From: Somniosus microcephalus
Lineage: Eukaryota
Length of the DNA stretch: 64,000 nucleotides
Direction of reading: 5' to 3'
Assembly (NCBI GenBank): GCA_052327205.1
Contig: CM126222.1
Location: 54,498,001 to 54,562,000 of the forward strand
Below the pieces are notes generated by a model. The model saw only the letters and a list, made by a program, of their open reading frames with translations, did not search any database and was not told the origin of the DNA. Positions 1-41,941 of this stretch are shown here, one piece after another. Made by a program: the position numbers and the translations under genes. Every line of letters begins with the position of its first letter. The stretch's first letter is position 1.

Positions 1-599
1 TGTTCAGTTATCATGACCTAAGCCTTTCACTGATACTGTAGGAGCCAGGGAGTAGTGACTTGTTTGGATGTGACTTGACCCTTTTTCCAAGTAAGTGTTT
101 TAATGTACTGGCTCTATTTCATGATCTTTGTATACAGGGCTTTTCAACCTCGAGCATTGCCGTTTTTGTGAAAATAGCTCACATTGCTGTACTATCCTCG
201 GACTGTATTTTGTGAAGAATTGAAAAATCTGAAGAAAATAGTGTGTAAATCAGTGCCATTGTGGTTAAAAAAAAATGGTGTCAGGAACAATTAAAAATAA
301 CTGGGGGAAACTATTTTCATGGTGGTATAAAACTGTAGGTTTACTCTGGTAAACTTTTGTACAGTCAATCAAGCCTTTTGTCTCCGTGGTGTTTTGTAAA
401 CAAAGTATGTATAAATCAGATGTACATCAACTGAGACTTCAATTAGCAAAATGTGACTAATCACATGTACCAAAAATTAGGTGGACAATAATCCTTAAAC
501 TTAACTTCAACATAGCCAAAAGGCAGCACTTTACCAAGAAGTGAATGGATGTAAAGCTGCAGCATCCATGTTGGACCAAGCTTTTGGTCACCTGTATAT

Positions 600-1050
600 G
601 ATCATAAAATCATACAGCACAGAAAGAGGCCTTTCGACCCATCGTGCCCGTGCCGGCTCTTTGAAAGAGCTGTCCAATCAGTGCCGCTCCCCTGCTCTTT
701 CCCCATAGCCCTGCAATTTTTTCCTCTTCAAGTATTCATCCAATTCCCTTTTGAAAGTTGCTATTGAATCTGCTTCCAGCACCTTTTCAGGCAGTGCATT
801 CCAGATCATAACAACTTGCTGTGTAAAAAAAAAAAACCTCCTCTGGTTCTTTTGACAATGACCTTAAATCTATGTCCTTTGGTCACCAACCCTCCTGCCA
901 GTGGAAACAGTTTCTCCCTCTTTTACTCAATCAAATCCCCTCATAATTTTGAACACCTCTATTAAATCTCCCCTTAATCGTCTCTGCTCTAAGAAGAACA
1001 ATCCCAGATACTCTAGTCTCTCCACATAACTGAAGTCCCTCATTCCTTTT
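600..1050 (-). mobile_element. CR1 LINE 3' fragment
   Basis: Reverse complement of CR1 ORF2 end, 3' UTR and tail; clearly similar to the + strand copy at 52410-52982. Confidence 0.85.
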
Positions 1051-2164
1051 CCTTGGGCTGCTGAAAAGTAAAGGTGCCAGAATTACTTTTCATCCCCAGT
1101 GAACTTCTGATGGGAGGTAAAATGGCAAGTTCCATATGACCCTCAAAATACCACTGAAAGTGAAACTCTAGGATGTTGCACTGACCTCTAACAATCTTAT
1201 AAATTCAAATGAACTGATTATCATCTCTAGCTCGGGTTGATCTAGAAGTGACTCTCATGCTGCACACTCTGTCATCGAAAGATGCTAAGTACACAACCCG
1301 CGGAGTTACTTGTAAGATTTTGTTTCCGTATTGGTTACCTGTAAGCACCTGTGACGATCTGACTAATGCTTGGGTAAGTCAACTGTAGGTTCCATTAGAG
1401 CAGAGTTTATGGGCTGTCTTTGCTAATGATCCACCAACTTATAAAGTCCATGTTCTACACATAGCAGATCAGAATTGTGTAATTATTTCTTGCATTGTAA
1501 AATATGTTTAGATTGAATTTGGCCTGAAACATTTTGCTCTGAAGATATGCAGAGTTCATGTAGGTTTCTGAAGATTCACTGAGTGTACAATGAATTCAGT
1601 GCCATTCATTTTAATATTTAAGGTACTAATCGCAACAGTACCTGTGCTAAATGAACTTAAAATCATATAATAATGAATAAGAAAGCTACAATAAATAATG
1701 ATGTGAAGCTTAAGGAAGTAAGTAATTGGTCAAATTGAGAAATTACGAATACCTTGATTACCATCTTGCTGTAGAAACTGATTTTAACAATGTCTATCCT
1801 ATACAAATGACATTTGGGATGATGGTAGCTTATAAAAGTAATGTGGGGTTAAATATGAATCAGTTTCCACATTAGGAGTGTAAAAAAAAAAGAAAACATT
1901 AGCATTGGAAGACAGCCACCATACTCAACATCAATACTCCTTTTAGAAGGTTTAGAAATAATTTAGATTGTTTTTTTTTCCTGTATCAGCTTGTTGACAT
2001 TTTGCCCTCAAGGAGTGAATGCTGTTGACCTACCAAAAGAACTAGTTGAAAGGAGTTACTAAACTGGACTATATGAGAAAATCAAAGGTATAGCAGTAGA
2101 TAATTTATTAGTCCATGGTGTACTCGTGATCTTAGCATTCCATTTATGCATTGATTCAGCTTCT

Positions 2165-2458
2165 GGCCTTGATTGGTAGCACTCACATCTGTGGGTCAGA
2201 GGATATAGGTTCAAGCCCCACTATAGATTTGAGCATATATTCTAGGCTGCAGTACTGAGGAAGTGTTGCACTGTTGGAGGTGTTTTTATTTGGAAGAGAT
2301 GTTGACCCAAGGCCCTGTCGACTTGCTCAGGTAAACTTAAAGATGCCATACACTAATTGAAGGAAGAACAGGGAATTCTGCTGGTGCCATGGCCAGATTA
2401 TTTGGTCATTCATTTCTTTGCTTTTTGTGGCCTTGCTGTGTACAAATTGGCTGCTGGG
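2165..2458 (+). mobile_element. tRNA-derived Deu-domain SINE (SacSINE1/AmnSINE-like), degenerate
   Basis: ggtagcactc..gtcaga..ggttcaagcccc head; tgcagtactgagg..tgcactgttggaggtg core; aaattggctgc end. Confidence 0.7.
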
Positions 2459-5400
2459 CACAGGCTATTCGCCAAAGCTTCAGCAGTTACTATGAGCAGC
2501 TATGGCTGTAACATAGATTTCACATTGGTCTGGTGACAATGCATCTTTTTTATTTCAATTTTACATATTGCTACATTTTATAATACAAATGCTGTGATAG
2601 TCCCACAAATCAGATCCCATGGTCACTTCTTGCCCAGCTGTGTGGTACAATATCACTTTTAGTTTAAGTACCTGCCACACAAGCAAAAGCTGACTGTCCT
2701 CCATGACTACTGGCATGAGTAAAGGTGGAACTGGAAAAGATAATGAATCAAGACGTTTCTATGGAGCACACAGAGGAACACAATCTGGAATATGTTCCAA
2801 AGCATTAAAATATCTTGAGGTTGAGGTGGGTTTCATAACCCAGACGAGCTTCCCCGTCTCAACCCCTCGATGTACGACTGCCTTGTAATCCACTCCAGAC
2901 TGTGTTATCCCTTAAATACTGCTGTTTCTCTCTCTGTGGACTCTCTCTTTCCCATAAACAGTCTCTGAGCAGTCGCGAGTGGGGGCAGAGGGCAAGACAA
3001 CTGAGCTGGACACGGTACAGCTGATGGGAGCTCATTTTCATTTGATTATTTTTATTAATATATTTAATATACATAGGCAAGAAATGCAAGAGAATATTTT
3101 ACACGTGACCTGCCATATTAATGTCAACATCTGTCAACAATAGTAGTTCCACTCTTTTGCATAAGACGATTAAGAGTTCACAGTGTGTATTTGAATATCA
3201 GACTGCTGTGACTCAATCCACTCACAGCCCTGGGGGAATCACGTGACTCATCTCCTTGGTAACCAGACACATTCTGTTCCCTTTAAAAATCCCCCACCTC
3301 TGCTCCCCATTGTTTTATTAGCTTGCCTCCAGGTGGGATCTGAGCCTGGAAGGGCACATGACACGTGTTGCCAATGCAGAAAATTTGTCAAAACACTTCT
3401 CTTTACGCACTCTGGACAGGTGTCTTAAGTTTGTGAACTTCTAAAAAAAATTTAATTAATGTTTGTAACTGTAAATTGTCCTGCATGTTAAATGCAATCA
3501 CTAAGTAGCCTTATTTACCTGATAATAATCTGACAGCCAGTTATACCTGTTCAGCCTTGTACTCAACAGAGAGCGGCCGCTTGTTTACAAACCATTTACA
3601 AAAGGTTTCAAGCACAAATCAGTCCTAAATCGTTCATTAAAAGAGATTTTCATCAGGGTACAGATCCACGCTGAGTACATTAAAATGCACTAACTCGTGA
3701 TTTACAGCTGCACATCAAGTTAATGCATCTTTAACAATCTCAAGTCTAACAGACAGACATCATGTAAACATTCTATGTACACTTTTTTTTGCCCAGCAAG
3801 ATTTTACTGGCCAGGTTAACATGAAGTGAAAAATCTATAGATCTGTCTGCCGCAGATGTAAATAAGTTGATCCACTACAGATGGAGTGTAGAAAGTTCAC
3901 ATATCTTTATGCTGATCTGTTTAAAGGACATGCACGTCAGTCAGCTATACTGACTGAGCAAGTCATCCCAATCAGCAGTGAAAACAGGGCGCCTAGAAAT
4001 AAAATTGTTATATTTCATTGCAGGTAAATTAGGTTGTTGTTATAGGCAACCTGTAGGTAAACTGTAAAACAGTGACTTCATTCTTTGGGGAGGGGTAAGG
4101 AAGGTAATTTATCTTCCCTTTTTCTATTCTCTAAGTCGCCTCATGCTCCAACCAAAGAGTATGCCTCCCGCAAGGCAGGTACACAGATATGGACCAGGGT
4201 AATTCCCCTCCTCCAATTTTGCACCACTCCCTGTGAGGGCACATCTGGCCTCCACGTAGCACTTTAATGTGGTGGTGGCGGCGCTGAGATTAAGAATTCA
4301 TCCTGTGGGGAATCCTAAACACGAACCCACATATTACTCAGCGTCACAAATCCCAGTGCACAGTGACATCAAGCGTACAGCACCATCACTCCACCCAGCC
4401 ATATCCCGACGGGTGGCTTTTCAAACAGGTAATCTGGGAGTTAGAGTAACTGAAAGACAAGAATTTCAGCTGGTTTGTAATGAACTTAACTTTCCGACAC
4501 ACTGTTGGGTGTGGGTCTGCTCTTCAAGAGAGTATACTGAAAAATTGAATGAGCCTGTCTCGACTCCCATCTTTAGCAAAGCATTTATCTTACCATGCCC
4601 CTCCCTGATCCAAGTGTAATCTTTAATCATTTGTTTTCAGTATTCTGGCATCTGCTGAAGTGAATCTAGGGCCCACAATCTTAAGCAATTAAATATCTGA
4701 TTTCATTTGGTAGTGACACCGTGATAACATCTCCATTTGACTGTTGGCACAGCTTTGCTTTATGTAATCCAAAAGCATGGAGTGTGATGCCAAATAATGA
4801 AAGTTAAGATCATTTGCAGCTATATACTGTAGAAGCCATAAGCAATGTGAACAGAAGATGAACGCTGTTAGTTGTACAGTAATCTGAAAGGTTTACTGAC
4901 CATTTTGTACACATGCCAGTAACCTGAAATAAGGAGCATCCCTATTCTTGTCAAATGGCTGGATTGTCATTTCTTAAGGTTTCCAAACAAGATCTGAAGA
5001 GGCAGAATTAGTGAAATCATGTCATTTTAATTTCTGGACTGAAAAAAATTGAAGTTTCTAAAATATTGATTGCATGTGTGAAGCCTCATGGCAACCGTTC
5101 CACTGTAGCAAGAACGTTCCCGTCAGCTACTAATGGCAGACATGGAAATTGAGTTTTTGGAGCAGATTCTGGTTGTCCCAGAATTGAGCCTCTTCAAAAG
5201 GGCGATGATATCACTTTAATGTAAAACAAAATTCACGGTTGTTTCAGCATGTTATAAGAAATGTTGTAGCTGTTGGTTTTAGTGCAGTAAAAGCAGTGAA
5301 ATTGATGAAAACTGTGAGGAAGAGCTGAAATCCCTTTAAATTTAATCTACGCCATATATTTGTACACCTGGCTAGTGGGATCCACATTCAAATCCACAGG

Positions 5401-8400
5401 ATTTTTGCCCAAGCCATTTCTGGACAGTCTGCTCCATTTAAGCACGGAGTGCAGCTTTTCACTTGTGAGTAATGTTTTTTGAGTCCATAAAACACTTAGA
5501 CAACTGATAACTGGTCCCCATTCTCACTGCTGCACAAATCAGTTAACAATCCATCTAATTAGGTCAACTCAACATCCCATTACTCATGGCATAGACCAGA
5601 TAGCCAATATAAATGATGTGCATCTCCAGTTTATAATTGCCATATTGTAAATATAACACAGAAATTTGAAATAAATTAGGGTTTATTCTACAGCATCATT
5701 TGTGCATGGTTCAGATAAGAGTCTGAAGTTGAGCAGTTAGCAATACGCCTTGGAGGATGGCACAGTTTAGAGCTGTTTATTTTCAAAGAGTGAGACTGGA
5801 AAGAAACTATTCTTAAACGAAATTGTCACTCAGAATAAATAAAACTTGACAAGATACAAGGGTTACGCTGCAGCTTCTTGCCCCTTAAACTTTCTATTTT
5901 TGTTGTGCTAACCGTATGCAGTTTATTCCGTAGCGTTAGTGCTCCCGTAGTTGAACAGGGGTCTCTTTCCCTCCGCCACCACCCCCCCCCCCACCCCCGA
6001 TATATGCATGAGCAACTTAGGACATTGGTGACACTTGGCTCCGAGGTCAGGAAAGGGCAGCAGGTCTTAAGGTCAGCGCAAAAGCAGTCATGTGAGATTT
6101 GCTAACAGAACCAATGCTGACTCTGCAATTTTATCCCAGGATCATGACCTAGTTCGTTCAGAATCAGATTACAGGCCGCTCATGCACTAAATTAAATAAA
6201 TAAAAGTTAAAATTGTAGAGACAGTTTCTCTTTTGTTGGTCTGAGCTGGGATTTAATTAAGCAATAATTTGCCCTAAAGAGTAGTAGGTTACGTCTGATT
6301 GAGCGAAGGGCTCAGAAAATTGAACCTCCAGTCAAGGAGAGAGTTTACCAGTTCTGTTGATAACGCAACTGCGAGTTTAAAATAACGGAGCATATTGTTA
6401 TTTAACCGTCCTTTGCAGCATATTCGATCCTTTCCACGCCATATAATTATGAACTCCGATGTTACCCCTGCACTTGAAAAACTGCCACTTACAAAACTGC
6501 TTCCATTGACTGGAGGAGGTGAGCCGCTTCTGATCCAGCTCAGTACCTGTATATATTTGATCTATTTCTCAAATGTCTGCGCAGTGTAATTACCACAGTT
6601 ACGATGCTATGGGTGGTACCTGCTTATGGGGCTGGCAGCCCAAGTTATACTGACTACTCTAAACCATCCTCTGGTCACGGAAAATGAAGCACAGAGCTCC
6701 ATTACCCAGCATCCAAATGCCAATTACATTTTGCTACTAAACAGCAGCAACTTAGTTGGCTGTTTGTTACCAACAAGAAGATTAACAATTTTTGACAGCG
6801 TTTTAAAGCTCACTTGATACCGGATTTGTAGCAGACTTACATTCTTAGGGTGGTCTCACACTCTCTGCCTAACTTTGATTGGAGCTATACTGTACACATC
6901 GCATCGCCACAAAGCCAACGCAGTTGTGCATCAGCACAAAACATGTGGTAGAATTGTCTTTACAACCCCTTCCGAAAGCATTAAATACTTTTTTTTTGAA
7001 AAGACAAGCTAAATTTATATATGATATTTAAAGCTATCGCCTGAAATAGGAGCTCCTTGTTCACTGTTAACTGAATTAGGAAAACAAAAACTTTTATTTA
7101 TATGATTTACCTGGAACCAATGGACATTTTTGGAGCACAGGAGGATCTGCATTCCGTAGGCCTGCAGGGTAAAGCAAGAGCCTGTAAACAAGGGATTTAA
7201 AATGTGGGTCGTGCACAAGGCCTTTTTTTCCACAGTATTCCCAGCATAGATAGCTTTCCCCACAGCAATGATATCTGGGTGTTGTGGGGCCCAGGTGAAA
7301 CGCCCACCGATTGCAGCACCTGAAGAAAGGCCATTCCCTCCCCATTACCCAATGATTTAGCTTTGCTTTACTGTTTTCTTACTCCTGTGTGATCACTGAC
7401 ATTTCCAATCTGTGTATTAACCTTGCTACAAAAATGCACAAAAAACAGATGCAACTGAACAGGAGTTTTAACAAAATTATGAGGCAAATAGCAAACAGAT
7501 GGAAAGTTGAAACGCAACATCAAAATAACAAGAGGTCACGTTTCAGTTCCTTGACCTTACCTACCCAAATCTTGAAAAAGTCGATTTTTTTTTTTGGTGT
7601 GTTGGCTGCTATCCTATATGAGATTGTTCTGATAGATTCCAGATGAGATCATGCAGCTATGGTTTCACTGCAAAGCAACAAATCTCAGATTCCACCAGCA
7701 AAGCTGAGGATCCTTCACAGGCTGTCAGTGTGAGGAAACCGTTACCGAGGATGAACCACCAGCTCAGATTTGACTTTCCTGATTATGTACTCTGACCGCA
7801 CCACCTCCGAACATAAGATTAAAATTGTTCACATTCTCCAAAAGTCCAGGCTTTACAACGGATTCACAGCAAAAATGTTAGTGCAAGTCACCATAGTTAT
7901 TTCCTCTGATCTTGCAAACCTATTGTCACTTTCTGCTTCAAAGAAAACTGCAACACATGCATCAGGATGGTAATTTAATACTGCTTGGTGCATGAACTGA
8001 CTCAAGAGCAGAGGTGAGTGCAAATGCTGAGCGAGCATTTTTGGCCATCATAATTAATCTGACCCTGAATTGAATATGTTCTTTCAGTGTAAAGGGGACT
8101 GAAATGTGTGGAAAGTGAAGATCTTACCATCTGTTCTGCACATTTTGCTCATTGTCTTCTAATATCCATCACCGTACTTTTGTGAACTAGAGGTTTGGGG
8201 GGTGGGGGCAGAAAAAAAATCAATGAAAAATATACCTGATTCTCGGAAAGTAGCAAATTCCTCAGAGTTAATGTCCCAGTGGTCAATTAGAAACTTAATG
8301 CTAAATGGCTCGGTGTAGAAATCTATCTATTGAACTGTTCAAAAGCAGCAGTGAATGGTCGAATGGTAATCTAGTCTAATTAGTGATTCAGAGATGACCA

Positions 8401-8519
8401 CATCAAGCTGGGTCCTCGCTCAACAAGACCAAGCTGGCCCTGTCAGGATGTGATTGTTACAGTAATCGCCTTAGACAATGCAGTGCACTGAAGGCAGCCT
8501 TTGCTTTGTTTATTTCTAG

Positions 8520-8655
8520 ATCCATCAGGACAGGCCTGAGCCTTCTCTGTGAGGAACTGAGGAATGAAGGGGAGCCCAAGAAGAAGAAGCAGTGTAAACT
8601 TTCTGGGAGGGAAAGCAAAGGACAGGAATATGATGGCAATAAGACGGGGTCAGAG
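8520..8655 (+). CDS. BAHCC1: BAHCC1-like coding exon A (first found in window)
   Basis: tttctag|A...GAG|gtcagt; 136 nt, phase 2->0; SIRTGLSLLCEELRNEGEPKKKK resembles recalled BAHCC1 VRTSLGLLCAELRG..EPAKKR. Confidence 0.8.
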
Positions 8656-8739
8656 GTCAGTAAATGTTTTTTTTATTGTGTTTTTAAAAAATGCGTGTCT
8701 AGTGTGTGGACTAGGCTCTTATGACAGCTCAGTTTATAA

Positions 8740-9208
8740 AGAAACTTGTGTGGATCTGAACCATACTGACCAGAAGTTCTCCTCCAGCTTCACTCCCAAG
8801 TCTGTGCTAAGTTAGCTGATCTCAGCTCGTAGCTGGTGATCGAGGTGCGGCAGTGAGGCTCCGCACCCTCCGCTAGGGAGGGAGAAATCAGCCAGCGAAC
8901 CCAATCATGATCAATATCCCGTGACTCCTACTGGGAAGTCCGTGCTTGTGGACATCAGGCGAAGACTGGATTGGGCTTGGCATTGATGTTCCCCCCCCCT
9001 CCCACCAAGACGATTGTCATGTCTACCAATCGTCCCTGTCCAGGTGGATACATAATCACTTGGGCAAGATACTGGAGGGCGGACAACACCCATGGTACTT
9101 CCTACATTACGACAGTGACTACACTTCAAAAGTACTTCATTGTCTGTAAAGCGCTTTGGGACGCCCGGAGGTCATGAAAGGCGCTATATAAATGCAAGTC
9201 TTTCTTTC
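8740..9208 (+). mobile_element. LF-SINE-like element with L2/Deu-type tail
   Basis: gttagctgatctcagc..gggagggagaaatcagccag core; tail gactacacttcaaaagtacttc..ggcgctatataaatgcaagtctttcttt. Confidence 0.7.
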
Positions 9209-9364
9209 AAGAGTCGACGCTTTCAGGGGAAGAGGGGAGAATATTAGAGGAAAAACTATTTTACTGTAAATCCTTCTGTTGAGATTTTAAGAAAATTTAC
9301 AATACCAAGACAGGGATCTCTTTTTAAAGTTAAAGCAATAAAGTTTGCTGACAAAGCTTGGTGC

Positions 9365-10072
9365 AGGGAGAAATTGGGTTGAGCTGCAAACGGGGCGCCA
9401 AGCTCGCCTGGGCGCCAGATTTTACGCTGCGATCGGAGCAGCAGCGATCGCCGGAAATTCAGCTTGAGCGCCCCAAGAGGGACACGGGGCGAGGCTCGAG
9501 GCGCTCCACGTCCCTCTTAGGGCGCTGAAACTGAATATCGCAGTGCAACGTGCCACAGCGCCACACGCTGTGGCACGGCGCGCTGCGGTACTGCAGGCCT
9601 TCCTCCCATTCTTAAGGGGGAGGGGCCTGCACCAGCGCGATGAGCGATCGCGAGTGCCGGCAAAAGAGCCCGGCACCGAGGAGAAGTGCCGGGCTCTCGG
9701 GACACAGCCGGCAATGCCGCGGGGGGAGAACAGGAGGCCGGGGATGGAGGTGCTGGCAGGCGGCCGCCGGAAAAAACGGCCACCCCGCACCTCCACCTTA
9801 ATTTGCGCCACTGCCGCCACAGGTAGGCCCCGTGAACCGGGCGCGATTAGCGAGCGGTGCTACAGAGGCGGTCGCTGCCAAATATCGCGATCAGGGTGGT
9901 AGAGCGGCGCTGCGCACACCGATGACGTCATCGGTGGCGGCGCAGTGCAACAGGCTAACGCCGCCATTAGCGCCCCAGCTAAATATCGCGGGAGGCGTGG
10001 CCAGTGGCGCTAAAGCCACTGAGTGCCCTCTTTAGGCGCTAACTGGTGGCACAGCCCACCGAATTTCTCCCC
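9365..10072. mobile_element. CpG-rich non-autonomous DNA transposon (PIF/Harbinger-like MITE)
   Basis: TIRs GGGAGAAATTGGGT / ACCGAATTTCTCCC; GC-rich interior with no credible ORF; TSD unclear. Confidence 0.65.
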
Positions 10073-10871
10073 CACGTGTTTTTAATTTTTTTTTTATTAA
10101 TGAAGCTGCAGATTTAAAGACCTGATTTACCAAATATGAGCGCTGCAAGCCATACTGAGCAGAGTGCACCGGGCAGGGTTCACGGGCAGGATACACCATA
10201 GCTGTATTAAATGTAAATTGACAAAGCTTGTCGAGGCAACAACACGGTGCAGCAAGTGTGAATGCATCAAGTGGGGAAACCGGATGAAGGACGGGGGCAG
10301 AACGATGACATTTTGGGTTGTCGGATTCCATTTCAGTCTATCGGTTTAACTGAAAATAAGAGTTTTAAAAGACCAGACCCAAAATAAAAAAAGTAAAAAC
10401 CTCCTGTTGTTCCTTCAGGAATATACAAGCATGAGTCGCCAAAAGATTCCCAGACTCTGCTGTACCACTTGCATCGATCCTCAACTTTACAGCTGAGGAT
10501 CAATTCCAGTGTTTTATATGGTATTAAAGTCGAACTAATCGGTAAATGAATTACATGTGTCTATTTTGTCACCTTTTTTTGGAAAGTGGACACCTTGCTA
10601 TCCTGTTTCCAAATACACTGGTCCCACCCCAGTGTCCAGTAATTTCATTATAATCACCGTAAGTGCCTCACAAATCTCTTCCCTAGTCTCAGTACTCAGG
10701 GATGGATGCCATCTGTCGCTGGGGATTTATTTCTTTTGAGCGCATTTAGTCTGTCTCGGGACTTCCATCTCATTTATATCAGGAAGTTATTACGAATGTA
10801 TAAAATTGACGGGCGGGAAAAGTCCAGCTGGACCATCAAGCCAGATGGCCAGAGCATCATGACTAAACAGT

Positions 10872-11416
10872 TCTTCCCTCCACCTCTCCTCTCTTCCTCT
10901 CTCCTCTCCCCTCTCCCCCTCTCCTCTCTCTCCCCCTCTCCTCTCTCTCCCCCTCTCCTCTCTCTCCCCTCTCCTCTCTNNNNNNNNNNNNNNNNNNNNN
11001 NNNNNNNNNNNNNNNNNNNNNNNNNNNNNNNNNNNNNNNNNNNNNNNNNNNNNNNNNNNNNNNNNNNNNNNNNNNNNNNNNNNNNNNNNNNNNNNNNNNN
11101 NNNNNNNNNNNNNNNNNNNNNNNNNNNNNNNNNNNNNNNNNNNNNNNNNNNNNNNNNNNNNNNNNNNNNNNNNNNNNNNNNNNNNNNNNNNNNNNNNNNN
11201 NNNNNNNNNNNNNNNNNNNNNNNNNNNNNNNNNNNNNNNNNNNNNNNNNNNNNNNNNNNNNNNNNNNNNNNNNNNNNNNCCCTTTCCTCTCCCCTCTCTC
11301 CCCTTTCCTCTCCCCCCTCCCCTCTCCTCTCTCTCCTCTCTCTCCTCTCTCTCCTCTCTCTCCCCTCTCTCCCCTCTCTCCCCTCTCTCTCCTCACTCCC
11401 CTCTCCCCCCTCTCCC

Positions 11417-11467
<51 letters not shown>

Positions 11468-11490
11468 TCCTCTCCCCTCCCCTCCCCCCA
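10872..11490. repeat. CT-rich simple repeat containing a 300-N assembly gap (10980-11279)
   Basis: (CT)n/(CCCTCT)n on both sides of the N run. Confidence 0.97.
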
Positions 11491-12013
11491 TGTAATCTCC
11501 TGGGGGAGGCAAAAAAAAACAGAGATTAATTCTGCTCAGGTCATCTTTGCTTGTAGCGGGCATGTTGCTCATGCCTCCCCTTGTGGATACTTGTTCCTGA
11601 CTCATGTTCCTCTTTTTTCAGTGCAGACGAGGGGAGGAATGTGCACAGGCCATTCTCATCCTGTATTCTACATATTAAAACACGTATTTTCTTTATGAAA
11701 TATCTCAGATGCCTCATGGTCCATCCGGAAATGATGTCATGGGTCAGTAGCCCAGTGGAGCAATTCATTTGACAGCAGGGGTCAGGCAGCATAGATGGGG
11801 AGTATAATTTAACAGATAAATTCAACATTTCAAACTGTTCAACATTATGGTTTTAAGTAGGAGCTGGTTAGCTCTCAAAAGTACTTTTGTCAAATATGAG
11901 ATAGACATTGGCGTGGCAGTAATGAAATAGTTCTCAAAATAACTGGCAATATACACCAATATAAATAAATGGCTGCATCTTTTAATCGTACATATAATAT
12001 GGATTTCTTTTAG

Positions 12014-12284
12014 ATTAAACCAAGAGCAAAAAAGGACATCCTTCAAACCAACCTCACGTCTCAGTTGGGAAAGTACAGCTCAAGGCCAAAGCAGAAGGTA
12101 CTGAGTAAAGCTGCAAATAAATCGCACACGGCAGCCATCCTGAAATCTGCCAACACCAGCCCCTTCAGGGGGAAAGCATCAGTCCTGCCTGGCAAGATTC
12201 AGAAACAACTGGGAAAAGCAAAGACTTCCTCAATACCACACAGCCAAGATAGAACAAAGCATATTACAGCAACTTCGGAAACAG
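12014..12284 (+). CDS. BAHCC1: BAHCC1-like coding exon B
   Basis: ttcttttag|ATT...ACAG|gtaagt; 271 nt, phase 0->1; open Lys-rich frame IKPRAKKDILQ...ATSET matching the 12065 ORF frame. Confidence 0.75.
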
Positions 12285-12399
12285 GTAAGTGACTGTTAGA
12301 AGATCTGGAGCTCGGTCAAGAGTTTCACAAAAGTAATGACGTACACAAGGTCGTAAAACCACATGCACTCGCAGCTTGATTTTTAAAAAAACCCCACAA

Positions 12400-12860
12400 A
12401 AACTGGAAATCTGAAACAGATACACTAAAGGCTAGAAATACACAGCCGGTTAGTCAGCACCGGAGAGCACAGACAAGTTAATGATACAGGAAACTTTGTG
12501 CTATCCGGCACCGACGGGACCGAGCTGTTGCCGTTCCCTCAAAACTGCCGGACACACCAGCGTTAATGTTGAAGCATACGGAGATTTTCATCTCCGTATC
12601 TGGCAACAAACGCCGTTGCTTAGCAACAGCTTCTAAACAGTCGGCCGTACCTTGGAAGTGTCTCTGTCGCTTAGCAACAGCTTCAGAGAGACTTTGCAGA
12701 GCCTGACTGTTGGGAAAAAAAAGCCACAAGAAGAATAAAAACCTAACAAAACGGCTCCTGATTTTTGCCGGTGGCTCGAGCTTGCCGGATATTTAGCCTC
12801 CGGATAACACACAGTTTCCTGTAACTAGTATAAACCTTCATCAGGACTGGAGAAATGAAC
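12400..12860 (-). mobile_element. Penelope 3'-end remnant interrupted by a MITE
   Basis: Minus strand reads ccagtcCTGATGAaggttt..[MITE]..cattaacttgtctgtgctctc..gctgtgtatttctagc..tttcagatttccag, similar to the Penelope end at 49220-49320. Confidence 0.55.
12487..12821. mobile_element. Tc1/mariner (Tigger-like) MITE family A, copy 1
   Basis: TA|CAGGAAACT...AGTTTCCTG|TA; related copies at 14439 and 19883. Confidence 0.88.
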
Positions 12861-13859
12861 AGCGTTTACTGTATATAGAAACAGAACCAAGGGAAGAGGT
12901 GAAACAAAGCACACACTTCCTCTCTTGCACATATATTTTTAAATTAAGCTAAGCTTATTGGGATAAGTTCTCTTCCTCTTCCCCCACCCACCACTATAAA
13001 CACCAGAGCGTGTCGTACTTAGTACATGTGTAACAAGTAATTGTTCATCAGTGCCAATATTGTGCCCTGATTGGTACTTTTAAATTTCTCCGACCGCAGA
13101 CTTTGCCCCATATCCACATGTTTGGATTAATTGTATGACTTTGAAATACTTGTTCTAGAACAAACTTTCAGGTGGCAGGAGCTTAATTTTAAATCCAGGT
13201 CATCTATACACACACGCACACACTTCTTTTTCAGATGCTGAAGAACTTAGGCTACCTGTAATTGTTCATAGGAAACATGGAAAAATGAGGCTATTTTGCG
13301 AGAATTTTCCTGTCCCACACCCCTGACATCGGCTGATAGGTTTCTTTAAGATCAGTTTCTTAAAGTGCACATTTGTAAATTATTCGGTTTAACTAGTCAA
13401 TCTCCTGTGGCATTGCATATGGGGAGTCAAGTAGTCTTTAGGTGAAGCAGGGTTAGAGGGCAGGAGTAATTGGACCAGAGCATGCAGATATAATTCAGTT
13501 TATTACATCGTGCCCCTAATTTGATACATAATACTTTGATTTTGTGTTATTATTGATAGTTACATAGAAAAATTTACAAGCACTTAGAGAAGTAGAGTTG
13601 ATTGGCACAAAGGAGTATCACTGCAGTACAGGCTGGGGAGAGGGAGAGAGACGCAAAACTAAGACACAACTAGTGGGAGGACTTAACTACAGTGTGACAG
13701 GATTACCTAGGCAGTTTCCATTATGAACGTGGACATAGGAATTTATATGCAAAAGCTGACACAAAAGTCTGACAAAAACGTGACAACAGGAAGTAGAGTT
13801 TTGTGGACAGGAATGATTGGAATAATAATTGAAGATGCCAACTTTGTTTTAACTTACAG

Positions 13860-14105
13860 CCTTGAAAATGGAATCGGGAGAAGAAGATGGTTTATCGAGT
13901 AGTAAAACTACTTTTGCAAAAAACAAAGTGGCTCAGAAGGCTAACTCTGTCATTAAAAAGAAGCCTGGTCTTCAACAGAAGAGAAGGGCTGCTGGGGTCA
14001 AAGTGCAGAAACCCATCAGTAAGAAGCAGAAGCAGGAAGTTCAGGCCACGGTGAATGAAAAGGAATGGATGTCCACAGAGAGTGATGGTTTCTCTTCAGA
14101 CGCTG
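13860..14105 (+). CDS. BAHCC1: BAHCC1-like coding exon C
   Basis: ttacag|CC...GCTG|gtatgc; 246 nt, phase 1->1; LKMESGEEDG...ESDGFSSDA. Confidence 0.78.
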
Positions 14106-14144
14106 GTATGCAACTTCCTGGTACAATGACTCATTGAATCACTT

Positions 14145-14880
14145 AGAAATTACATGGAAACACGCCATGCAGCCCAACCAAATCTGTGTTAGTGCCTACC
14201 CTTTACATAAGCAGTTGTCCTAATCCCATGTGCCCACCTTGTTTGCATATTTCCTTATCCCCCCCTTCGTTCAACCACCCATGTTGATGTGGTCTCTGCT
14301 TCAGTCATTAATTCTGGTATTGCATTGCACAGCCTCACACTCCTGTGTAAAAAAATTTGCCTGCTTTCTACCCTAAATCTCATATCTAATTTTATATCTC
14401 TGTCCCCTCATTCTCTGTGAACAGTCTGTTTCTATCTACAGGAAACTTTGTGCTATCTGGCACCGACTGGACCGAGCTGCTGCCGTACACTCCAAACTGC
14501 TGTACACTCCAGAGCTAATGTTGAAACATACGGAGATTTTTATCTCCATATGAATCAACAAACCCTGTTGCTTAGCAACAGCCTCTAAACAGTCGGCAAG
14601 CATCTCTGTAGCGTCTGTAGCTGAAGCTGTTGCTTAGCTACAGACCTTGCACAGCTTGACTGTTCAAAAAAAGCCAAGAAAGGAATAAAAAACGGCTCCT
14701 GATTTTTGCCGGTGGCTCCAGCTTGCCTGACGGTTCGCCTCTGCATAACTCAAAGTTTCCTGTACGTCGGCCCCATCCCTTCATAATTGTAAACTCCTCT
14801 ACCAAATCGCCCCGTAATCTCGCCTGTTCTAATGAAAACAGACCCCAAATTTTCAAGTCTTTCCTCTTATTCAAAGAAAA
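14145..14880 (-). mobile_element. Degenerate CR1 3' fragment hosting a MITE
   Basis: Minus ORF LFSLEQARLRGDLVEEFTIMKG is the CR1 ORF2 C-terminus; interrupted at 14439-14762. Confidence 0.7.
14439..14762. mobile_element. Tc1/mariner MITE family A, copy 2
   Basis: TA|CAGGAAACTTTG...CAAAGTTTCCTG|TA; same orientation as the 12487 copy. Confidence 0.88.
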
Positions 14881-14994
14881 TGTGCTTTTGAAATTTAACA
14901 AAAGGCCTGTCCCGAACAGTACCATTGCGACATCGATGGATTAATTTAGGCCCCTTGCACAGTGCCTCAGTGGCGCAACACTGATTTGTCAATA

Positions 14995-15560
14995 CAGGTA
15001 GACTATCCTTTATCTGAAAACCTCGGGACCAGCCGTGTTTCGGTTTTCGGAAAATTTCGAATTTCGGAAGGTATTTTATAAGACTGGGAAATTTGTCGGG
15101 GGTGGGCCGGCGGGGGTCATGGTCGGCGGTGGGGGGGGTCGGGGTCGGGGGGGGTCGGCGGGAGTCGGGGTCAGCGGGGGGGTCGGCGGGAGTCGGGGTC
15201 GGCGGGGGGGTCGGCGGGAGTCGGGGTCGGCGGGGGGGTCGGCGGGAGTCGGCGTCGGCAGGGGGGTCGGCGGGGGGGTCGGCAGGGGTCCACGGGGGGG
15301 TCGGCGGGGGGTTGGCGGGGGTCGGGGTCGGCGGGGGGGGTCCGCGGGGGGTCGTCGGCGGGTGGTCGGCGGGGGTCGGGGTCGGCGGGGGGTCGTCGGC
15401 GGGGGTCGGGGGTCGTGCGCACGACTTACGCTGACCCTCTGCTCAGCGTAAGTCGTGCGCCACTCTGGTCATGTGCGCACGACTTACGCTGAACGAAAAA
15501 AACCTTCGGTTTTTAGAGGGTTTCGGTTTTCGGAAGTTCGGATAAAAGGTAGTCTACCTG
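14995..15560. mobile_element. Tc1/mariner MITE with internal G-rich minisatellite
   Basis: TA|CAGGTAGACTATCCTTTATC...GATAAAAGGTAGTCTACCTG|TA; (GGGGTC/GGCGGG)n at about 15095-15415. Confidence 0.85.
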
Positions 15561-16258
15561 TACTTAGTATAATGACATTGTTGGATGCGCATGAATTTAC
15601 AATTCTTCATAAGGTGAGTTGCAGATATCAACTTGGCTCTAACAAGGGATTGCTGAAAAAAGGTGAGGAGCCTCAACACAGCGAGAGAAACTATTAGAGG
15701 GCGAGTTTATCTGGCCTCTGTCACATGCCTCTTTGTTGCTGGGGTACTTGGCAACAATGCAGAGACCTGGAAGCTGGCTGACTGGCTACTACCTTTTTGG
15801 CCAGGAAGTTAGAGTACAGGTTTCCCATCAACTGAAACCCATTATAACTGGAATGCTTGCCTTGCTTCCCAAATGGAAAATGGAGAATTTTTTTTTAGAA
15901 ATAGCATATCCAAGGCAACCCAATAGCGCAAGAGACAGCACACTTACCTCTAATCCAGAGAGTTACAAGCCTGAAGCCCTGCTACATGAGGTCTGTATTA
16001 GTCAATAGGAGAACCGCTACAAAATGAGATGATCCATTTTGGAGATGGGAACAACTGACATCTTTGAATTGTGCATCTTATTGACAGTTTGCGGCATGAC
16101 GTGCAAGGTTCTGAAACCTAAGATAGGCTGAAGTACAATGCAGGGCGGTGAATTTTTGCCCAGCAGTTTGTCTTCGCATTGGCCCATTGTCGGAACAAAC
16201 ACTGCTGTACCAAAACCCCCTTAAACGCTGTATTTGGTCCAAATGATTAAAGTATTAA

Positions 16259-16540
<282 letters not shown>

Positions 16541-17324
16541 TAACCACAGATGCCTGATCTCGCTTGACCATTACGGGTTAGGTAACACAATTGGTGAAGA
16601 CTCAAAGCAGGATGAGTAAGCACATTAAAAGGGTGCCCTTGGGTTTGACACTACATTTTTTGTCACTTACACAATCAGACATTACATATGAAGTAAATTA
16701 TAATACAGCCTTCATCATAACCCCGTGCTGTAGGCACCATTGAGTATTGTGCTGGGGCAGTAGAGCTAGAAACACTGAGGTAAGTAAGATTATTCATTTC
16801 TCTCCCCTCCCCCTTTCCCAAATGTTACTTTGTATTATAAGGATGTGTTCCCTGTTTTTCTCCACCTCCCCCTGTGTATACCTCCTAAAGCTGAGGGAGA
16901 GATTACCTGCAAAATCTGGTCTCTCACTGGCCATGATATTTGGCTGCAACATTGATCTGTGCTTCTGTTGCTGTTCATGACTGGGAGAGTGGGTGAGCTG
17001 GAATAGCAATAACATAAAGTAAATTACTTTGTCTGGTAACAGTGTGATCATTCACACTTTGATTTTTATCATTTTATTTGATGGGAATATTGGGGGGCGG
17101 TTGCATTTATATCCCCTTTTCCTTTGTCTGCCTGGCCTGAAAGGGGAGGCACAGAGCCCCACTCTTGGCCCCGGCAAATACTCCTTGTAACCACTGGCAT
17201 CAGGAACCACCAAGATGTATCATAGATGGCAGTCATTGCCAACCAACCCAGATCAGCACAATCACAAACTGAGTGGAGTGCACACTTTGACTTATAAAAG
17301 CTTAGCTGATGGTGAGTCTCCCCC

Positions 17325-17678
17325 GCAGCACGGTGGCATAGTGGTTAGCACTGTTGCCTCACAGCGCCAGGGACCCGGGTTCGAATCCGGCCTCGGGTGA
17401 CTGTCTGTGTGGAGTTTGCACATTCTCCCCGTGTTTGCGTGGGTTTTCTCCGGGTGCTCCGGTTTCCTCCCACAGTCCAAAGATGTGCGGGTTAGGTTGA
17501 TTGGCTATGATAAATTGACCCTTAGTGTTAGGGGGATTAAAATATGTGGGGTTACGGGGATAGGGTGGGATATGTGTTGGTGTAGGGGTTACGGGGATTG
17601 GGTGGGATATGTGTCGGTGCAGGCTCGATGGGCCGAAATGGCCTCTATCTGCACTGTGGGGTTTCTGTGATTTCTGTG
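17325..17678 (+). mobile_element. HE1-like V-SINE
   Basis: A box tggcatagtgg, B box ggttcgaatcc, V domain tgtggagtttgcacattctccccgtg..ctccggtttcctcccacagtccaaag, CR1-like tail. Confidence 0.9.
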
Positions 17679-18059
17679 AAATTGACTTTTTGCAGCCCAT
17701 TCAAATAAGTATTACGTCTACCCAAGAATGAGAGCCAACTGTCAAAAACACCCATAAAAGCTCCAAACAAAAGCCTCATAAATGTACTTTGCAATAAAAT
17801 CTGTTAATGGGGACCACCTGCCACATGTAACCACAACTACATATTTCTGATCCCAGTTATGATTTTATAATTAGATTTTTTTTTTAAACACACGTCCATC
17901 GGAAACTTGCATGATCAGCACGTGGCTGAGGACTGCTTCCAAATGGCTATTGCAAAGCACTCAAAGAGCGGCGGCTGCTGTTGATAAACAATGGTAGAGG
18001 GATTTAGTTTGTTCAAATCTCATTTTACTTCACAGCTGTGCAGAGGGACCACCTACAAC

Positions 18060-19413
18060 TAAGAACTGATTCTGCAGCAGCCGTGAATGGTCAGTGTTGA
18101 CTGACGTCACTGTATGAAAACAACCCCCCCCCCCCCCCGCCGCCGCCCTCCCAACCCCATGTTGCAAAACTGCTTCAGGGAAGTTCACAAAGTTGAGATA
18201 AATATCCCCAATGATCTAACTACCTCGAGTTTCTGCTGTACCGCCTTTGTAAGTGTCTGGTGATTCTCCTCGCATTTGTGCTCATGGGTGGCGGGATGGA
18301 TTAAAGAGCACAGGAGACATTCCTTGTGTTTGATGAATAGGGTGGGCTGGATTCAGATGAGGGGAAAATGGGCATGGTCCTGCTGTACTTCTTGGATTGG
18401 CCAATGTGTGGATTGTAAATTCTTACTTCTTGTATTTCCAGGAACGCTTGGATTTTCCAGCGCAGATGGAGATGTGAAGATTAAAAAGCGCCCTGCCAAG
18501 CACGGCCTGGTATCTAGCAGTGCAGTGAAAAAGATTGAGAAGCTCCCAGCAATTAAGAAAAAAGGACTGAAAGCAGGAGAAAAGACTAAAAAGCTGAAGA
18601 ACACCAAGGGGGGAGCAGAGGTGACAATTTGGCGCCGTTTTGAATCTGATCTGCGGCCCCTGCTGCATGGTGAGAGATTATTTCCCAGTGACTCTTCTGT
18701 ACCTGCACAAATGGCATCTAGAAGTCAGGCCAAGAAGGGCCCAGCTAACAGGTGTAAAAATGTCACCAGAAAAAGCAAAGTACTGCAGGCTACTTTCAAG
18801 GTAGGTTTAGAATAAGCAATGCAGGGGCACTTCAAATCCAAACTAAATGTTCTGCATCGTTCTGTGACTTTTGTGCATTAGCAAACGTTCTGTGACTCCA
18901 GGCATTTTACTGATTAGTTGTTTCACCTTAAAGGTTTCAATAATTTTCAGTTTTATTTCAAAGCGGTACTCTCCCTTAACCAGTTCCATTATCACTACTC
19001 GGTTTTACCCTTTCCCCATACAAAATATATATCTTCAATTTTTTTTTTTTTTTAAGTCCCCTATAATATTTCCAGTTTCAGTCTCTCGACCACTTTACTG
19101 CCCTTGTTCAACCGACAGACTGGAACAGTATTAACTACAGTCACGTCTCCAGCTGCCGTCATTGTTTCTTCATGGCAGGTGACATCCTGCCACCCATGAG
19201 CACAAATGTGAGGAGAATCACCAGACACTTACAAAGGCGGTACAGCAGAAACTCGAGGTAGTTAGATCATTGGGGATATTTATCTCAACTTTGTGAACTT
19301 CCCTGAGGCGGTTTTGTATCATGGGGTTGGGAGGGCGGTGGGGGGGGGATTGTTTTCATACAGTGACGTCAGTCAACACTGACCATTCACGGCTGCTGCA
19401 GAATCAGTTCTTA
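18060..19413. repeat. Long inverted repeat (arms 18060-18298 and 19183-19413) flanking exon E
   Basis: Arms are reverse complements with 8 substitutions plus a length difference in a C/G tract. Confidence 0.97.
18442..18800 (+). CDS. BAHCC1: BAHCC1-like coding exon E
   Basis: tttccag|GA...AAG|gtaggt; 359 nt, phase 1->0; SSADGDVKIKKR...NVTRKSKVLQATFK resembles recalled SSPESEVKIKRR...RATRKGTVLQPVLR. Confidence 0.88.
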
Positions 19414-19882
19414 TTTGCAAAGCATGATGGGTTTCCTTGAGGATTGATTCTTTCCCGAGACACAGTGCTGTCACCGCACACACCTCAATCACTGACCAGC
19501 AACACTCATCCATTGAGGGAAGCCAAATCTGAATGTTAGTTAATGTGTCACTAAAAATTCAATTTAGAATTGTACTTTTTACCTCAGCCCTGTAGTCTCT
19601 CCCCTCCCCCCACTTTAAGTCCTATGTCACATGTGACAATAGCAGGACAGATTTCCCTCTGAATTTTCCCGACTCCCAACTGTTCGAGCAGCAGTCCTCA
19701 ATTCTGTGTTTTGCTGCGATAGCTCAGCCATGACCGGAGGCTAGCAGTGCAGGGACTCTCTGGCATAAACCCAAGGCCTGCTACTGTGCGATACAGTGTA
19801 TTACTACAGCAGTCTGCTGTGCTTATACGATTGCCAGAATCTTAAAGCTAAACTGCCTGCAATGCAACAAAAAAATGAAATA

Positions 19883-20215
19883 CAGGAAACTTTGGTTTAT
19901 CCGGAGGTTATATGTCCGGAATACTTGATCTAACGGCAAAAATCAGGAGCCGTTTTCTATAAGTTTTTTTAGTTCTGGTTGCTTTTTTTTCCCAGTCAAG
20001 CACTGCAAGGCCTGTAGCTATAGCAACAGCTTCAGCTAGAGACGCTTGCAGCTGCAGCCGAGTGTTTTGAAGCTGTTGCTAAGCAACAGGGTTTGTTGAT
20101 TCATACGGAGCTTTTCAGTTCCGTATGTTTCAACATTAACGCTGGTATATCCGGCACTTTTGATGGTACGGCACCAGCTCGGTCCCGTCCGTGCCGGATA
20201 TCAGAAAGTTTCCTG
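19883..20215. mobile_element. Tc1/mariner MITE family A, copy 3 (inverted relative to copies 1-2)
   Basis: TA|CAGGAAACTTT...AAAGTTTCCTG|TA; interior is the reverse complement of the 12487 copy. Confidence 0.88.
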
Positions 20216-20286
20216 TAATAGCATTTTAAAAGTTTCACCAACATTTTTTTGTAAACAATTGCACGTCTGCATGCTGTAGGTATATA

Positions 20287-23414: not shown

Positions 23415-23513
23415 AAATCAAGTGGACTGTGCCTTTCACAAAAAGGAGGAACCCCCACTGACTATCAACGGAATAGGCTGAACAAGCTAAAGAGCAAAGT
23501 GCCAGTGAAAGAG
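23415..23513 (+). CDS. BAHCC1: BAHCC1-like coding exon F (not in ORF track)
   Basis: ttttgtttttcccacattag|AAA...GAG|gtgagg; 99 nt, phase 0->0; KSSGLCLSQKGGTPTDYQRNRLNKLKSKVPVKE sits where the recalled RKNGALS..RKLSKVKHKAGKQ segment is expected. Confidence 0.72.
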
Positions 23514-35205: not shown

Positions 35206-37118
35206 GCTTGCATGAACTTTTGATTTGCGTATTGAGTTGTTCTTGAGTTATCAGCCTTTTGGGGGCTTTATCAGCAATTTTGAAGTTGTTGGTCAGATTT
35301 TGCAATGTTACGTTGACAGCACGACACATCGACTTCTTTTTGCAACTTTTACTGTGCTTAATCAACGTGGAATCAAAGATTTACAACCACATCTGCAGTT
35401 CATGCAATCGCCAGTTTGCAGCTGAGCCCAATTGTGCTTTGAAAGTTACGCATCACCTGGCACATAGGGTCACTTTGAACATGCTTAAACTTTTCAAGCA
35501 CCAAAAACTGTTAGTTGCACTTTAACCCGACGAAATAAATCCTAACAAAAGGAGTGTGGGCGAGGACCCAGGGAAAAAATACAGCATAAGACAAAGGATC
35601 AGGTCTGGCAAGAAAGCAGGTATTGAAGTAAAATAATAGGAGATTCAGCGATTACGTCTGAATAATGTTCTCCGCTTCCTAAGTAACTGATTCCACGTGA
35701 GTTGTGGAGTTGACTTTTCCAGCTCCAATACACTGCATACATGCCTATAACTGCTGGAAGGGCCTCTTCTTACATCAGCTTAATGGTGACCTAAGGCAGG
35801 ACCTTGTAAATGACTATGCTGCAGACTAAACATATGGTAACTGTATAAATGTAGCAATTGATTCACAAACTTTGACATTCTGCCATTTTTTGGTGCACGA
35901 GGGGGAAAAGGCTGCGGCCTAGTGCTCTGCAGCTGCTTTGATTGCAGACAACTACTGCTCACTTTTAACAAAAATGTTATATTTTACCAGTAAAGTCAGT
36001 TTACTGTTACTGTATGGCCTTGCTACTTGTGCATATTGTATTAATTAGCTCTAAATTAACAGGCGAATAAGTCTGACAATTTTACAAACCAGCGCAGGCC
36101 TTTGTTTATTGCTTGATTACTAATACCCCTCGTTCATCAGCAGTGACTTTCGCTTGATAGTTAAGCAGTTCTCTGAATGTAACACTCAACCAGCTTAGTA
36201 ACGATCAGTGATCCAAGCTGGGGAAGCTTTCCCCTGCAGCACAGCAGCTCCACTACTGAGTTCCGTCCGCCACAGGGGAAAAAGGGCAAGGTACTTGGAA
36301 AAATCAGATTGGTGCGCTAAAGGGAAATTTAAAAAAAAGAGGCCCGGCACTTGCAAAAAAAAGGCATGTGCTACATCACTGAGAAAATTACATGGAATTT
36401 GGTAAAAGGGTACGGCATTTGGAAAGATGCCAGAGCACTTTGTAAAAATGGTAAGTCATTGCACCCTGCTGTGACACATTAGCAAAATCACTATAATTTG
36501 TTTGAGTGCTGAAAGGACTCTGCTAAATAATGTGGAAGGTGGAGATGCAACTTGATGCAGTGAAAAACGTTCTTTTGTGTTTGGGGCGGAGGTTGTATTG
36601 TTTGGTTAATACAATGGAGGCTTAGTTTTCTTAGATACTTAATATTATTTCCACATACACATTTAGCAGATTTGTCATTCATTTCATTTGGGCTTCTCCG
36701 AGGCCTGCAGTAGCATTTGCTCCAAAATAAAGAAGATCACACATTTTAGATCATTCATAAAACACAGAATATGAAGAAGCTATTGCTCTGGGGAGGAAGG
36801 GGCTATATGCAACAGGAATAAATTAACTGGGCCTGTGGTGCTTTTACTACAAGAGCATAACTGACTGAACCCACGCAAGACTCTCTCTTTCAATATCCGT
36901 AGTGTAAACAGTCCCAGGTTCCAGGAATCAGTGGCATCATAGAATATGGGTCAGTGATTCTGCTATCAGGTTAATGCTACCTCTTGGGAGTAAAGTAAGT
37001 GATGGAAGCCAGTTCGATGTGTTTGCTGCCTGGGTCTCTGTATTGCATATTAACGGCCTGGATTTTGCCAATGGGGAGCTTTTGGAGGCGGGACTCCCAC
37101 TTTTCGGGTTTTAGTCCC

Positions 37119-37352
37119 TGTTAAGTCTGTGTGTTCTAGTTGTAATTACTAACACAGACTACAAGATTAAAGTTCAACAGGTCTTTACTGGTTGGAGGTC
37201 AGGACTATACTAAATACAATATTACTACACAGTGCTTATATACCGGTGGTCACCACCGGTATTACGTATACAGCAGCCAGAGAAAGTAGTACATCTCTTA
37301 AGGTGGAACAGGCTTAAGTTCTCTTAAGGTGGAACAGGTTACATACACCACA
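37119..37352 (-). repeat. 3' LTR
   Basis: Preceded by the PPT on the minus strand. Confidence 0.96.
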
Positions 37353-37430
37353 ATCCTCCCTTTTTAGCTTAACAGTCATATCCCCATTTAACATAACATA
37401 ATAACATATATAACTTCAGGTATAAACAGT

Positions 37431-41361: not shown

Positions 41362-41941
41362 CGTTGCAATTTAATTTATTTTTATTCTTATCCAAGATGG
41401 CGGCTTCCCGCTCTTGTCTTCGTCCTCCGCCTACAAAATGGCGGTTTTCCCGCGCTTGGCGGTCTTCACCCGTCCCCCGACGCTGTCTCCGCTTCACCGC
41501 GGCTCTCGCGCCTTCAGTTGCCTCAGACGCTGCGCCTTTTTAGTCCGAATGCGGCCCGGCCCTTATCACCAGCCGCGATCGATGTCCCCGCGCTGCGCCT
41601 TTCGGCCCGAATGCAGCCCGGCCCTTATCTCCGGTCGCGATCGATCTCACCGCCCTTATTCCTCCGTCTTCCCTCCCCGTCTGTACAGCCAACGCGGCCG
41701 ACTTTCTGGTCGCGTCGCTGCCCGGCTTACCCACCACCGAGGTAGAAAGAAGATAGCTGACAGCTGCTGATGGAGGCTTCGAGTTCAGGATGTCTTCTGC
41801 ACTCTGGTTTCTCGATGTCTGCCGCGCGACGTGTCTTCCAGCAGGGTGATGAGGGTGGAAGCCTCTCTTCGACGTCCGTTCTGTGGACGAAGCCGCCGTG
41901 GATATAAACTGCCGCAGGGTAAGAATCGGACTCGTCGCCAC

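What the first reader, a model, noticed from the sequence alone, without database searches (positions are those of the whole stretch)
18060..19413. Near-perfect ~235-bp inverted repeat brackets one frame-shifting coding exon: candidate RNA-structure switch
Seen: arm 1 (18060-18298) and arm 2 (19183-19413) are reverse complements with 8 substitutions plus a C-tract length difference. They enclose an 884-nt loop holding exon E (18442-18800) and both its splice sites, 143 nt and 382 nt away. The arms have no TIR, TSD or tail and I saw no other copy in the window, so they look like a local inverted duplication. Six of the 7 transitions give G-U pairs on the sense RNA and one gives A-C (one-sided p about 0.06; four are CpG-type, so this is only suggestive). 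Exon E is 359 nt, phase 1->0. Skipping it shifts the frame to a TGA at 23459-23461, far upstream of later junctions and before the Tudor and BAH exons. Established: flanking intronic complementarity promotes back-splicing and skipping and makes ADAR substrates. Inference: a cis hairpin could tune the dose of this chromatin reader through NMD and/or produce a 359-nt circRNA.
Basis: partly seen in the sequence, partly recalled or inferred. Interest (0 to 1): 0.78.

Follow-up and report, generated by a model that had tools for sequence, protein, structure and literature searches.

The report
Inverted DNA scar around BAHCC1 exon
A 235-base piece of intron DNA sits in two backwards-matching copies on either side of one coding exon of the chromatin gene BAHCC1 in a fish that is likely a shark; it is likely an old, tolerated DNA-repair scar of a kind also found elsewhere in this genome, and although the RNA is predicted to fold into a long hairpin, any effect on splicing is untested.

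Summary
Arms 18060-18298 and 19183-19413 are reverse complements (8 substitutions, one 8-nt indel), occur only twice in the 6.45-Gb genome, and enclose a 359-nt frame-shifting BAHCC1 exon whose skipping would give a stop at 23459. The 'switch' reading has no direct support: no reads could be laid, so skipping, circles, editing and conservation are untested. Indirect tests point to an ordinary origin. A 1.97-Mb sample of the same genome holds one other two-copy inverted duplication of this size and three shorter local ones, so tens to hundreds of exons should be bracketed by chance. One breakpoint lies at the tip of a 7-bp hairpin, as repair by template switching would leave. The exon is intact, has near-consensus splice sites and is included in the whale-shark protein. 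The G-U excess is real but weak (p 0.02-0.06, post hoc, clustered changes) and is the one hint the other way. The scan noted the same kind of feature before on other DNA (UNC5, JAKMIP2, TBC1D9; PPP3CA in this genome). Verdict: likely a tolerated local inverted duplication, probably giving some by-product circRNA or editing.

The parts
18060..18298 (+). Arm 1, unique intronic DNA ending 143 nt upstream of the exon E acceptor
   Evidence: two copies genome-wide
19183..19413 (-). Arm 2, inverted copy of arm 1, starting 382 nt downstream of the exon E donor; likely the inserted copy
   Evidence: direction inferred from the hairpin at its inner end
19173..19192 (.). 7-bp DNA hairpin with 6-nt loop whose tip is the inner breakpoint of arm 2; possible snap-back scar or stall site
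   Evidence: sequence; stem of 7 or more at 0.4-0.8% of positions, P about 0.03 for one of four ends
18124..18142 (+). C tract where the arms differ by an 8-nt indel; two of the eight substitutions here depend on gap placement
18162..18174 (+). Cluster of 4 of the 8 arm differences in 13 nt
   Evidence: P = 0.024 by simulation
18442..18800 (+). BAHCC1 coding exon E, 359 nt, phase 1 to 0, intact, inside the loop with its branch region and both splice sites
   Evidence: 82% identical to whale-shark BAHCC1 residues 991-1110; splice sites
16329..16535 (+). Upstream coding exon D
   Evidence: tblastn 90% to P0001; ends
23415..23513 (+). Downstream coding exon F; holds TGA 23459-23461 in the frame reached if exon E were skipped
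19881..20221 (-). Interspersed repeat inverted against copies at 12485-12823 and 14432-14764 (78%): an ordinary second set of complementary intron sequence around exons D-E or C-E

Best explanation
A 231-239-bp stretch of BAHCC1 intron is present twice, in opposite orientation, on either side of exon E; it was likely copied once, locally, by a template switch during DNA replication or break repair in an ancestral germ line, and has likely drifted since as a tolerated scar. Shown: two-copy inverted duplication, no TSD, hairpin at one breakpoint, intact exon. Predicted: the pre-mRNA forms a duplex of about 230 bp with the exon in the loop. Inferred: strong splice sites keep exon E mostly included, so any circRNA, NMD-bound skipping or A-to-I editing is a by-product and not a selected dosage switch.
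For: Two copies only (control). No TSD. Inner end of arm 2 at the tip of a 7-bp hairpin, P about 0.03, fitting secondary-structure-primed repair (PMC5728401, abstract) and template switching (PMC7954356, abstract). In 1.968 Mb of sampled genome: one other two-copy inverted duplication of about 245 bp at 87%, three shorter local ones and 7 repeat-derived inverted pairs of 200 bp or more within 2 kb; extrapolated, about 70 exons (95% range 2-400) bracketed by the 200-bp class if the genome has about 200,000 exons (assumed). 4 of 8 differences at CpG (p 0.004), as in decaying methylated DNA; arm divergence 3.5% is near the 5.4% of repeat copies in the same introns (307 of 5670 sites). Exon E as conserved as exons B and C (82% versus 83 and 81%); donor AAG/GTAGGT, acceptor 82% pyrimidine.
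Against: G-U outnumbers A-C 6:1 (5:0 without the two alignment-dependent sites); local repeats show no strand bias to explain it (45% G-U, 80 of 187 transitions; p 0.038 and 0.019). The arms are longer and more alike than the other two-copy cases found. None of the 20 junction positions checked in background cases had a hairpin of 7 bp (best 6), so the scar is not a general mark of the class. The rate of the 200-bp class rests on one event. A duplex of this length close to both splice sites is the layout that drives circles and skipping in minigenes and worms (PMC4201285 passages, PMC8330042 abstract), so a sizeable effect is not excluded.
Confidence: 0.72

Rival explanations
1. Selected RNA-structure switch: the duplex loops out exon E to send part of BAHCC1 mRNA to NMD and/or makes a 359-nt circRNA, tuning the dose of the reader.
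For: Geometry as in known RCM loci; duplex -464.5 kcal/mol with perfect runs of 97 and 64 bp; skipping gives a stop before the Tudor and BAH exons; G-U skew not explained by local strand bias; the repeat has lasted long enough for 8 substitutions.
Against: No RNA evidence. Skew is post hoc, 4 of 8 changes are clustered (P 0.024), and 5 of 36 background inverted pairs with 5-12 transitions are skewed 5:1 or more in either direction. No compensatory change can be seen with two copies. Near-consensus splice sites. G-U can inhibit circularisation (PMC4201285). Such brackets are expected by chance.
Confidence: 0.12
2. Unselected but biochemically strong: the scar diverts a large share of transcripts into circles or skipped forms, tolerated because BAHCC1 dose is buffered.
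For: Inverted repeats of 30-40 nt suffice in minigenes (PMC4201285 passages); RCMs promote both skipping and back-splicing (PMC8330042 abstract).
Against: 21,271 of 49,891 Alu pairs within 1 kb flank constitutive human exons and duplex stability differed little between exon classes (PMC13019027 section 21); a frame-shifting loss in a conserved gene should be selected against (inference).
Confidence: 0.1
3. The arms are remains of a rare transposon (two insertions, or the terminal repeats of an element), not a local copy.
For: 29 of 31 inverted pairs of 100 bp or more in the first sample had arms that also match distant repeats; the genome search can miss diverged or very common words.
Against: Only two matches genome-wide, while 64- and 91-bp pieces of old repeats returned 35 and 111 candidates at 79-94% identity; no TSD; the enclosed DNA is the native exon in gene order.
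Confidence: 0.04
4. Assembly artefact (fold-back chimera).
For: Not checked on reads; word shares of the DNA runs (0.90, 0.84) cannot tell, as losing either arm still keeps 0.89-0.90 of words.
Against: Arms differ by 8 substitutions, 7 of them transitions and 4 at CpG, with 884 nt of unique DNA between, inside an 81-Mb contig and with the gene in correct exon order on both sides.
Confidence: 0.02

Closest known systems
Reverse-complementary matches / inverted Alu pairs flanking circularised or looped-out exons (PMC4201285 passages; PMC8330042 abstract; PMC13019027 abstract and section 21)
   Same: Complementary intronic arms on both sides of one exon, within 1 kb, with splice signals left in the loop.
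   Different: Arms are a two-copy local duplication, not SINEs; no circle, skipping or editing is shown; no conservation is shown (unlike the zip-2 RCM kept in five nematodes); both splice sites look strong.
Class 2 templated sequence insertions (PMC5110952, abstract and passages)
   Same: A copied patch with intact donor, no TSD, no poly(A) tail.
   Different: The donor lies under 1 kb away and inverted, not at a distant locus; empty site not seen; RNA-template origin untested.
Template switching / SD-MMEJ snap-back synthesis (PMC7954356 and PMC5728401, abstracts)
   Same: Local inverted copy, with a hairpin at a breakpoint and a cluster of substitutions.
   Different: The copied tract is about 230 bp; those models mostly concern shorter tracts (recalled). 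Which arm is the copy is inferred, not shown.

Membership tests
RCM-driven circRNA / loop-out exon | Complementary arms in both flanking introns, close to the exon | tested here: met
   143 and 382 nt away; 229 pairs in MFE fold
RCM-driven circRNA / loop-out exon | Back-splice or skip junction in RNA | not tested
   Two raw RNA runs of the same species were listed but no reads were laid
RCM-driven circRNA / loop-out exon | Product lost when one arm is deleted | not testable with these tools
   needs minigene or genome edit
RCM-driven circRNA / loop-out exon | Weak 3' acceptor (class most prone to loop-out, PMC13019027) | tested here: inconclusive
   Acceptor 82% pyrimidine with CAG, donor AAG/GTAGGT: looks strong, but no MaxEnt score was available
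Selected RNA structure | Conservation of both arms with compensatory changes across species | not tested
Selected RNA structure | Substitutions keep pairing more than expected | tested here: inconclusive
   6:1 or 5:0 G-U, p 0.02-0.06; clustered; 5 of 36 background pairs as skewed either way
Interspersed transposon pair | Many copies genome-wide | tested here: not met
   2 candidates, 1+1 for a 17-mer; control 7452
Interspersed transposon pair | Target-site duplication or tail | tested here: not met
   longest flanking direct repeats 3-4 nt; flanks
Class 2 templated sequence insertion | No TSD, no poly(A), donor intact | tested here: met
Class 2 templated sequence insertion | Donor at a distant locus | tested here: not met
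   donor 884 nt away
Class 2 templated sequence insertion | Microdeletion or microhomology relative to the empty site | tested here: inconclusive
   3 of 4 bases match beyond the outer end; empty site unknown
Template switch / SD-MMEJ | Hairpin or repeat at the junction able to prime synthesis | tested here: met
   7-bp stem at the inner end of arm 2, at 1 of 4 ends; P about 0.03

The most novel reading that the evidence does not exclude
A single repair-born, non-transposon inverted duplication was co-opted in one shark lineage as a poison-skipping and circRNA switch for the histone reader BAHCC1, kept paired by purging A-C but not G-U changes; with thousands of such duplications per genome, they would be an unrecognised source of splicing regulation in vertebrates that lack Alu.
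Probability: 0.1. Interest if true: 0.65.

Novelty: new member of a known kind. Interest (0 to 1): 0.2.

Why it matters
If it were a selected switch, it would show that a one-off repair scar can become a dosage control for a chromatin reader (its tandem Tudor reads H4K20me1: PMC12219854, search listing; BAH reading of H3K27me3 is recalled) without transposons. As it stands it is a clean natural test case: a two-copy, uniquely mappable duplex around one frame-shifting exon, for asking how much circRNA, skipping and editing such a scar gives in a cartilaginous fish. The background count (about 2 local inverted duplications of 60 bp or more per Mb) is useful for judging similar hits of this scan.

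Tried and rejected
Read evidence: none obtained, so splicing, editing, long-read support and presence in relatives stay open. Transcription-linked mutation bias as the cause of the G-U skew: my own idea, rejected, 80 of 187 transitions in 17 non-LTR repeat copies give G-U. High-copy transposon: rejected. Known RNA family: none over the arms. Coding circle: 359 nt is not a multiple of 3; ATG-started frames around the circle are 3-58 codons, nothing to suggest a product. Dating: 3.5% divergence with the epaulette-shark rate of 7e-10 per generation (PMC10587355 passages) gives over ten million generations, but the rate's range is tenfold and half the changes are CpG, so no age is claimed. Junction hairpins as a class mark: not seen in background cases. 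Literature: 'BAHCC1'+'circRNA' 7 papers, none on a BAHCC1 circle by title or abstract start; 'circBAHCC1' 0; shark with circRNA/editing 8, none on shark circles by listing; inverted duplication/template switch/shark listing showed no report of this locus. Subscription papers and supplements were not searched.

Full report
Observation. The repeat is as described. Self-BLAST finds 18056-18298 against 19417-19183 at 93% with an 884-nt gap. Global alignment of 18060-18298 with 19183-19413 gives 8 substitutions (6 G-U, 1 C-A, 1 U-U on the sense RNA) and one 8-nt indel at the C tract. Two of the eight lie beside the indel and depend on gap placement. The MFE fold of 18000-19470 pairs 229 bases of arm 1 with arm 2; the duplex scores -464.5 kcal/mol and has perfect runs of 97 and 64 bp.

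Gene. Exon E matches one protein in the search, whale-shark BAHCC1 (P0001, 82% identity, 1 of 330 candidates passing), which carries SH3, Tudor and BAH domains. tblastn places 12 exons in the window and the rest in the flanking loci, in order. Exon E is 359 nt, phase 1 to 0, open, and as conserved as exons B and C. Skipping would reach TGA at 23459-23461, upstream of the Tudor and BAH exons and many junctions, so NMD would be expected (established rule, not tested). The donor is AAG/GTAGGT and the acceptor has 82% pyrimidines before CAG. That the organism is a shark is inferred from this match.

Origin. The arm returns 2 candidates in the 6.45-Gb genome, the two arms; a 17-mer matches once on each strand; a control repeat gives 7452 candidates, and short pieces of old repeats give 35-111. 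There is no TSD. The inner end of arm 2 lies at the tip of a hairpin, 19173-19179 pairing with 19186-19192; stems of 7 bp or more occur at 0.4-0.8% of positions, P about 0.03 for one of four ends. This fits fold-back synthesis at a repair junction (PMC5728401, abstract) or template switching (PMC7954356, abstract), and suggests arm 2 is the copy; a pre-existing hairpin that ended the copying of arm 2 into arm 1 is the alternative. Four of eight differences are at CpG (p 0.004), so the arms are old genomic DNA rather than an assembly chimera, though no read confirms it.

How common. I took 197 tiles (1.968 Mb) at round coordinates of 24 contigs' blocks, 198 kb of it flanking the window, not randomised. 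Among 90 inverted pairs of 40 bp or more, 78% or more and gap up to 5 kb (window included), 10 rows had under half of the arm matched elsewhere in the sample; one is the finding. I searched 4 of the other cases genome-wide: a pair of about 245 bp at 87% on C23 and one of 68 bp at 85% on C27 are two-copy; pairs of 91 and 64 bp derive from old repeats but match their local partner far better than any other copy (129 versus at most 88 bits; 100 versus at most 67). Four shorter rows were not searched. Extrapolated: about 3,300 (83-18,000) two-copy events of 200 bp or more and 13,000 (3,600-34,000) local events of 60 bp or more; with an assumed 200,000 exons, about 70 (2-400) and 430 (116-1,090) exons bracketed by chance. 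Seven further repeat-derived pairs of 200 bp or more lie within 2 kb of each other in the sample, and this gene already has a 78% inverted repeat pair around exons D-E. Earlier notes of this scan describe like cases at UNC5, JAKMIP2, TBC1D9 and PPP3CA; these are unchecked and count only as leads.

The G-U skew. I first thought strand-biased mutation would explain it. It does not: in 17 non-LTR repeat copies in this gene's introns, 80 of 187 transitions give G-U, so 6:1 has p 0.038 and 5:0 p 0.019 (0.063 and 0.031 at even odds). Against reading this as selection: it was noticed after the fact, 4 of 8 changes fall in 13 nt (P 0.024) and may be one event, and 5 of 36 background pairs with 5-12 transitions are skewed 5:1 or more, three towards G-U and two towards A-C on the + strand. 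G-U pairs also limited circle production in minigenes (PMC4201285, four passages). It remains the only hint of selection.

What it would do. Known systems show that such arms can promote back-splicing and skipping (PMC8330042, abstract; PMC4201285, passages), so some circRNA and editing are likely. But many human exons flanked by Alu pairs are constitutive, and stability tracked skipping only for weak acceptors (PMC13019027, section 21). With strong-looking sites and an exon still under constraint, inclusion is likely dominant. None of this was measured: raw RNA runs of the species exist but no reads were laid, and word shares cannot tell whether relatives have both arms.

Verdict. Real, two-copy, locally made inverted duplication; likely a tolerated scar (0.72); selected switch 0.12; strong unselected effect 0.10; transposon 0.04; artefact 0.02. 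It works like an RCM pair in layout, is not shown to be one in function, and is a new member of a known kind. No report of a BAHCC1 circle or of this locus appeared.

Noticed in passing
window 37118-42179 (- strand): LTR retroelement in a BAHCC1 intron, 239-bp terminal repeats 99.6% identical, long ORF pieces with protease/RT/integrase-like motifs (labels recalled). Observed only.
   Followed up: no
window 57490-59013: 35-bp minisatellite, 43.5 copies, 96% matches, ending about 240 nt before a BAHCC1 acceptor.
   Followed up: no
window 60647-60736: 34-nt inverted repeat, 94%, 22-nt spacer, in an array of short palindromic units; MITE-like by look.
   Followed up: no
L116:9928 to L117:916 (G000 C23): Two-copy inverted duplication of about 245 bp, 87%, around a 493-nt loop that looks like a LINE fragment.
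   Followed up: partly
L010:3907-5902 (G000 C21): 64-bp local inverted duplication, 95%, 1.9 kb apart, about 2.4 kb upstream of the first BAHCC1 exon matched by P0001.
   Followed up: partly
L056:6812-9844 (G000 C9): Element with 347-bp inverted ends 99.4% identical and a 790-codon open frame on the - strand; ends resemble Penelope-like repeats (recalled).
   Followed up: no
L143:4693-5771 (G000 C27): Nested pair of short inverted matches (68 bp 85%, 66 bp 82%); the outer one is two-copy genome-wide, probably an older, decayed inverted duplication.
   Followed up: partly
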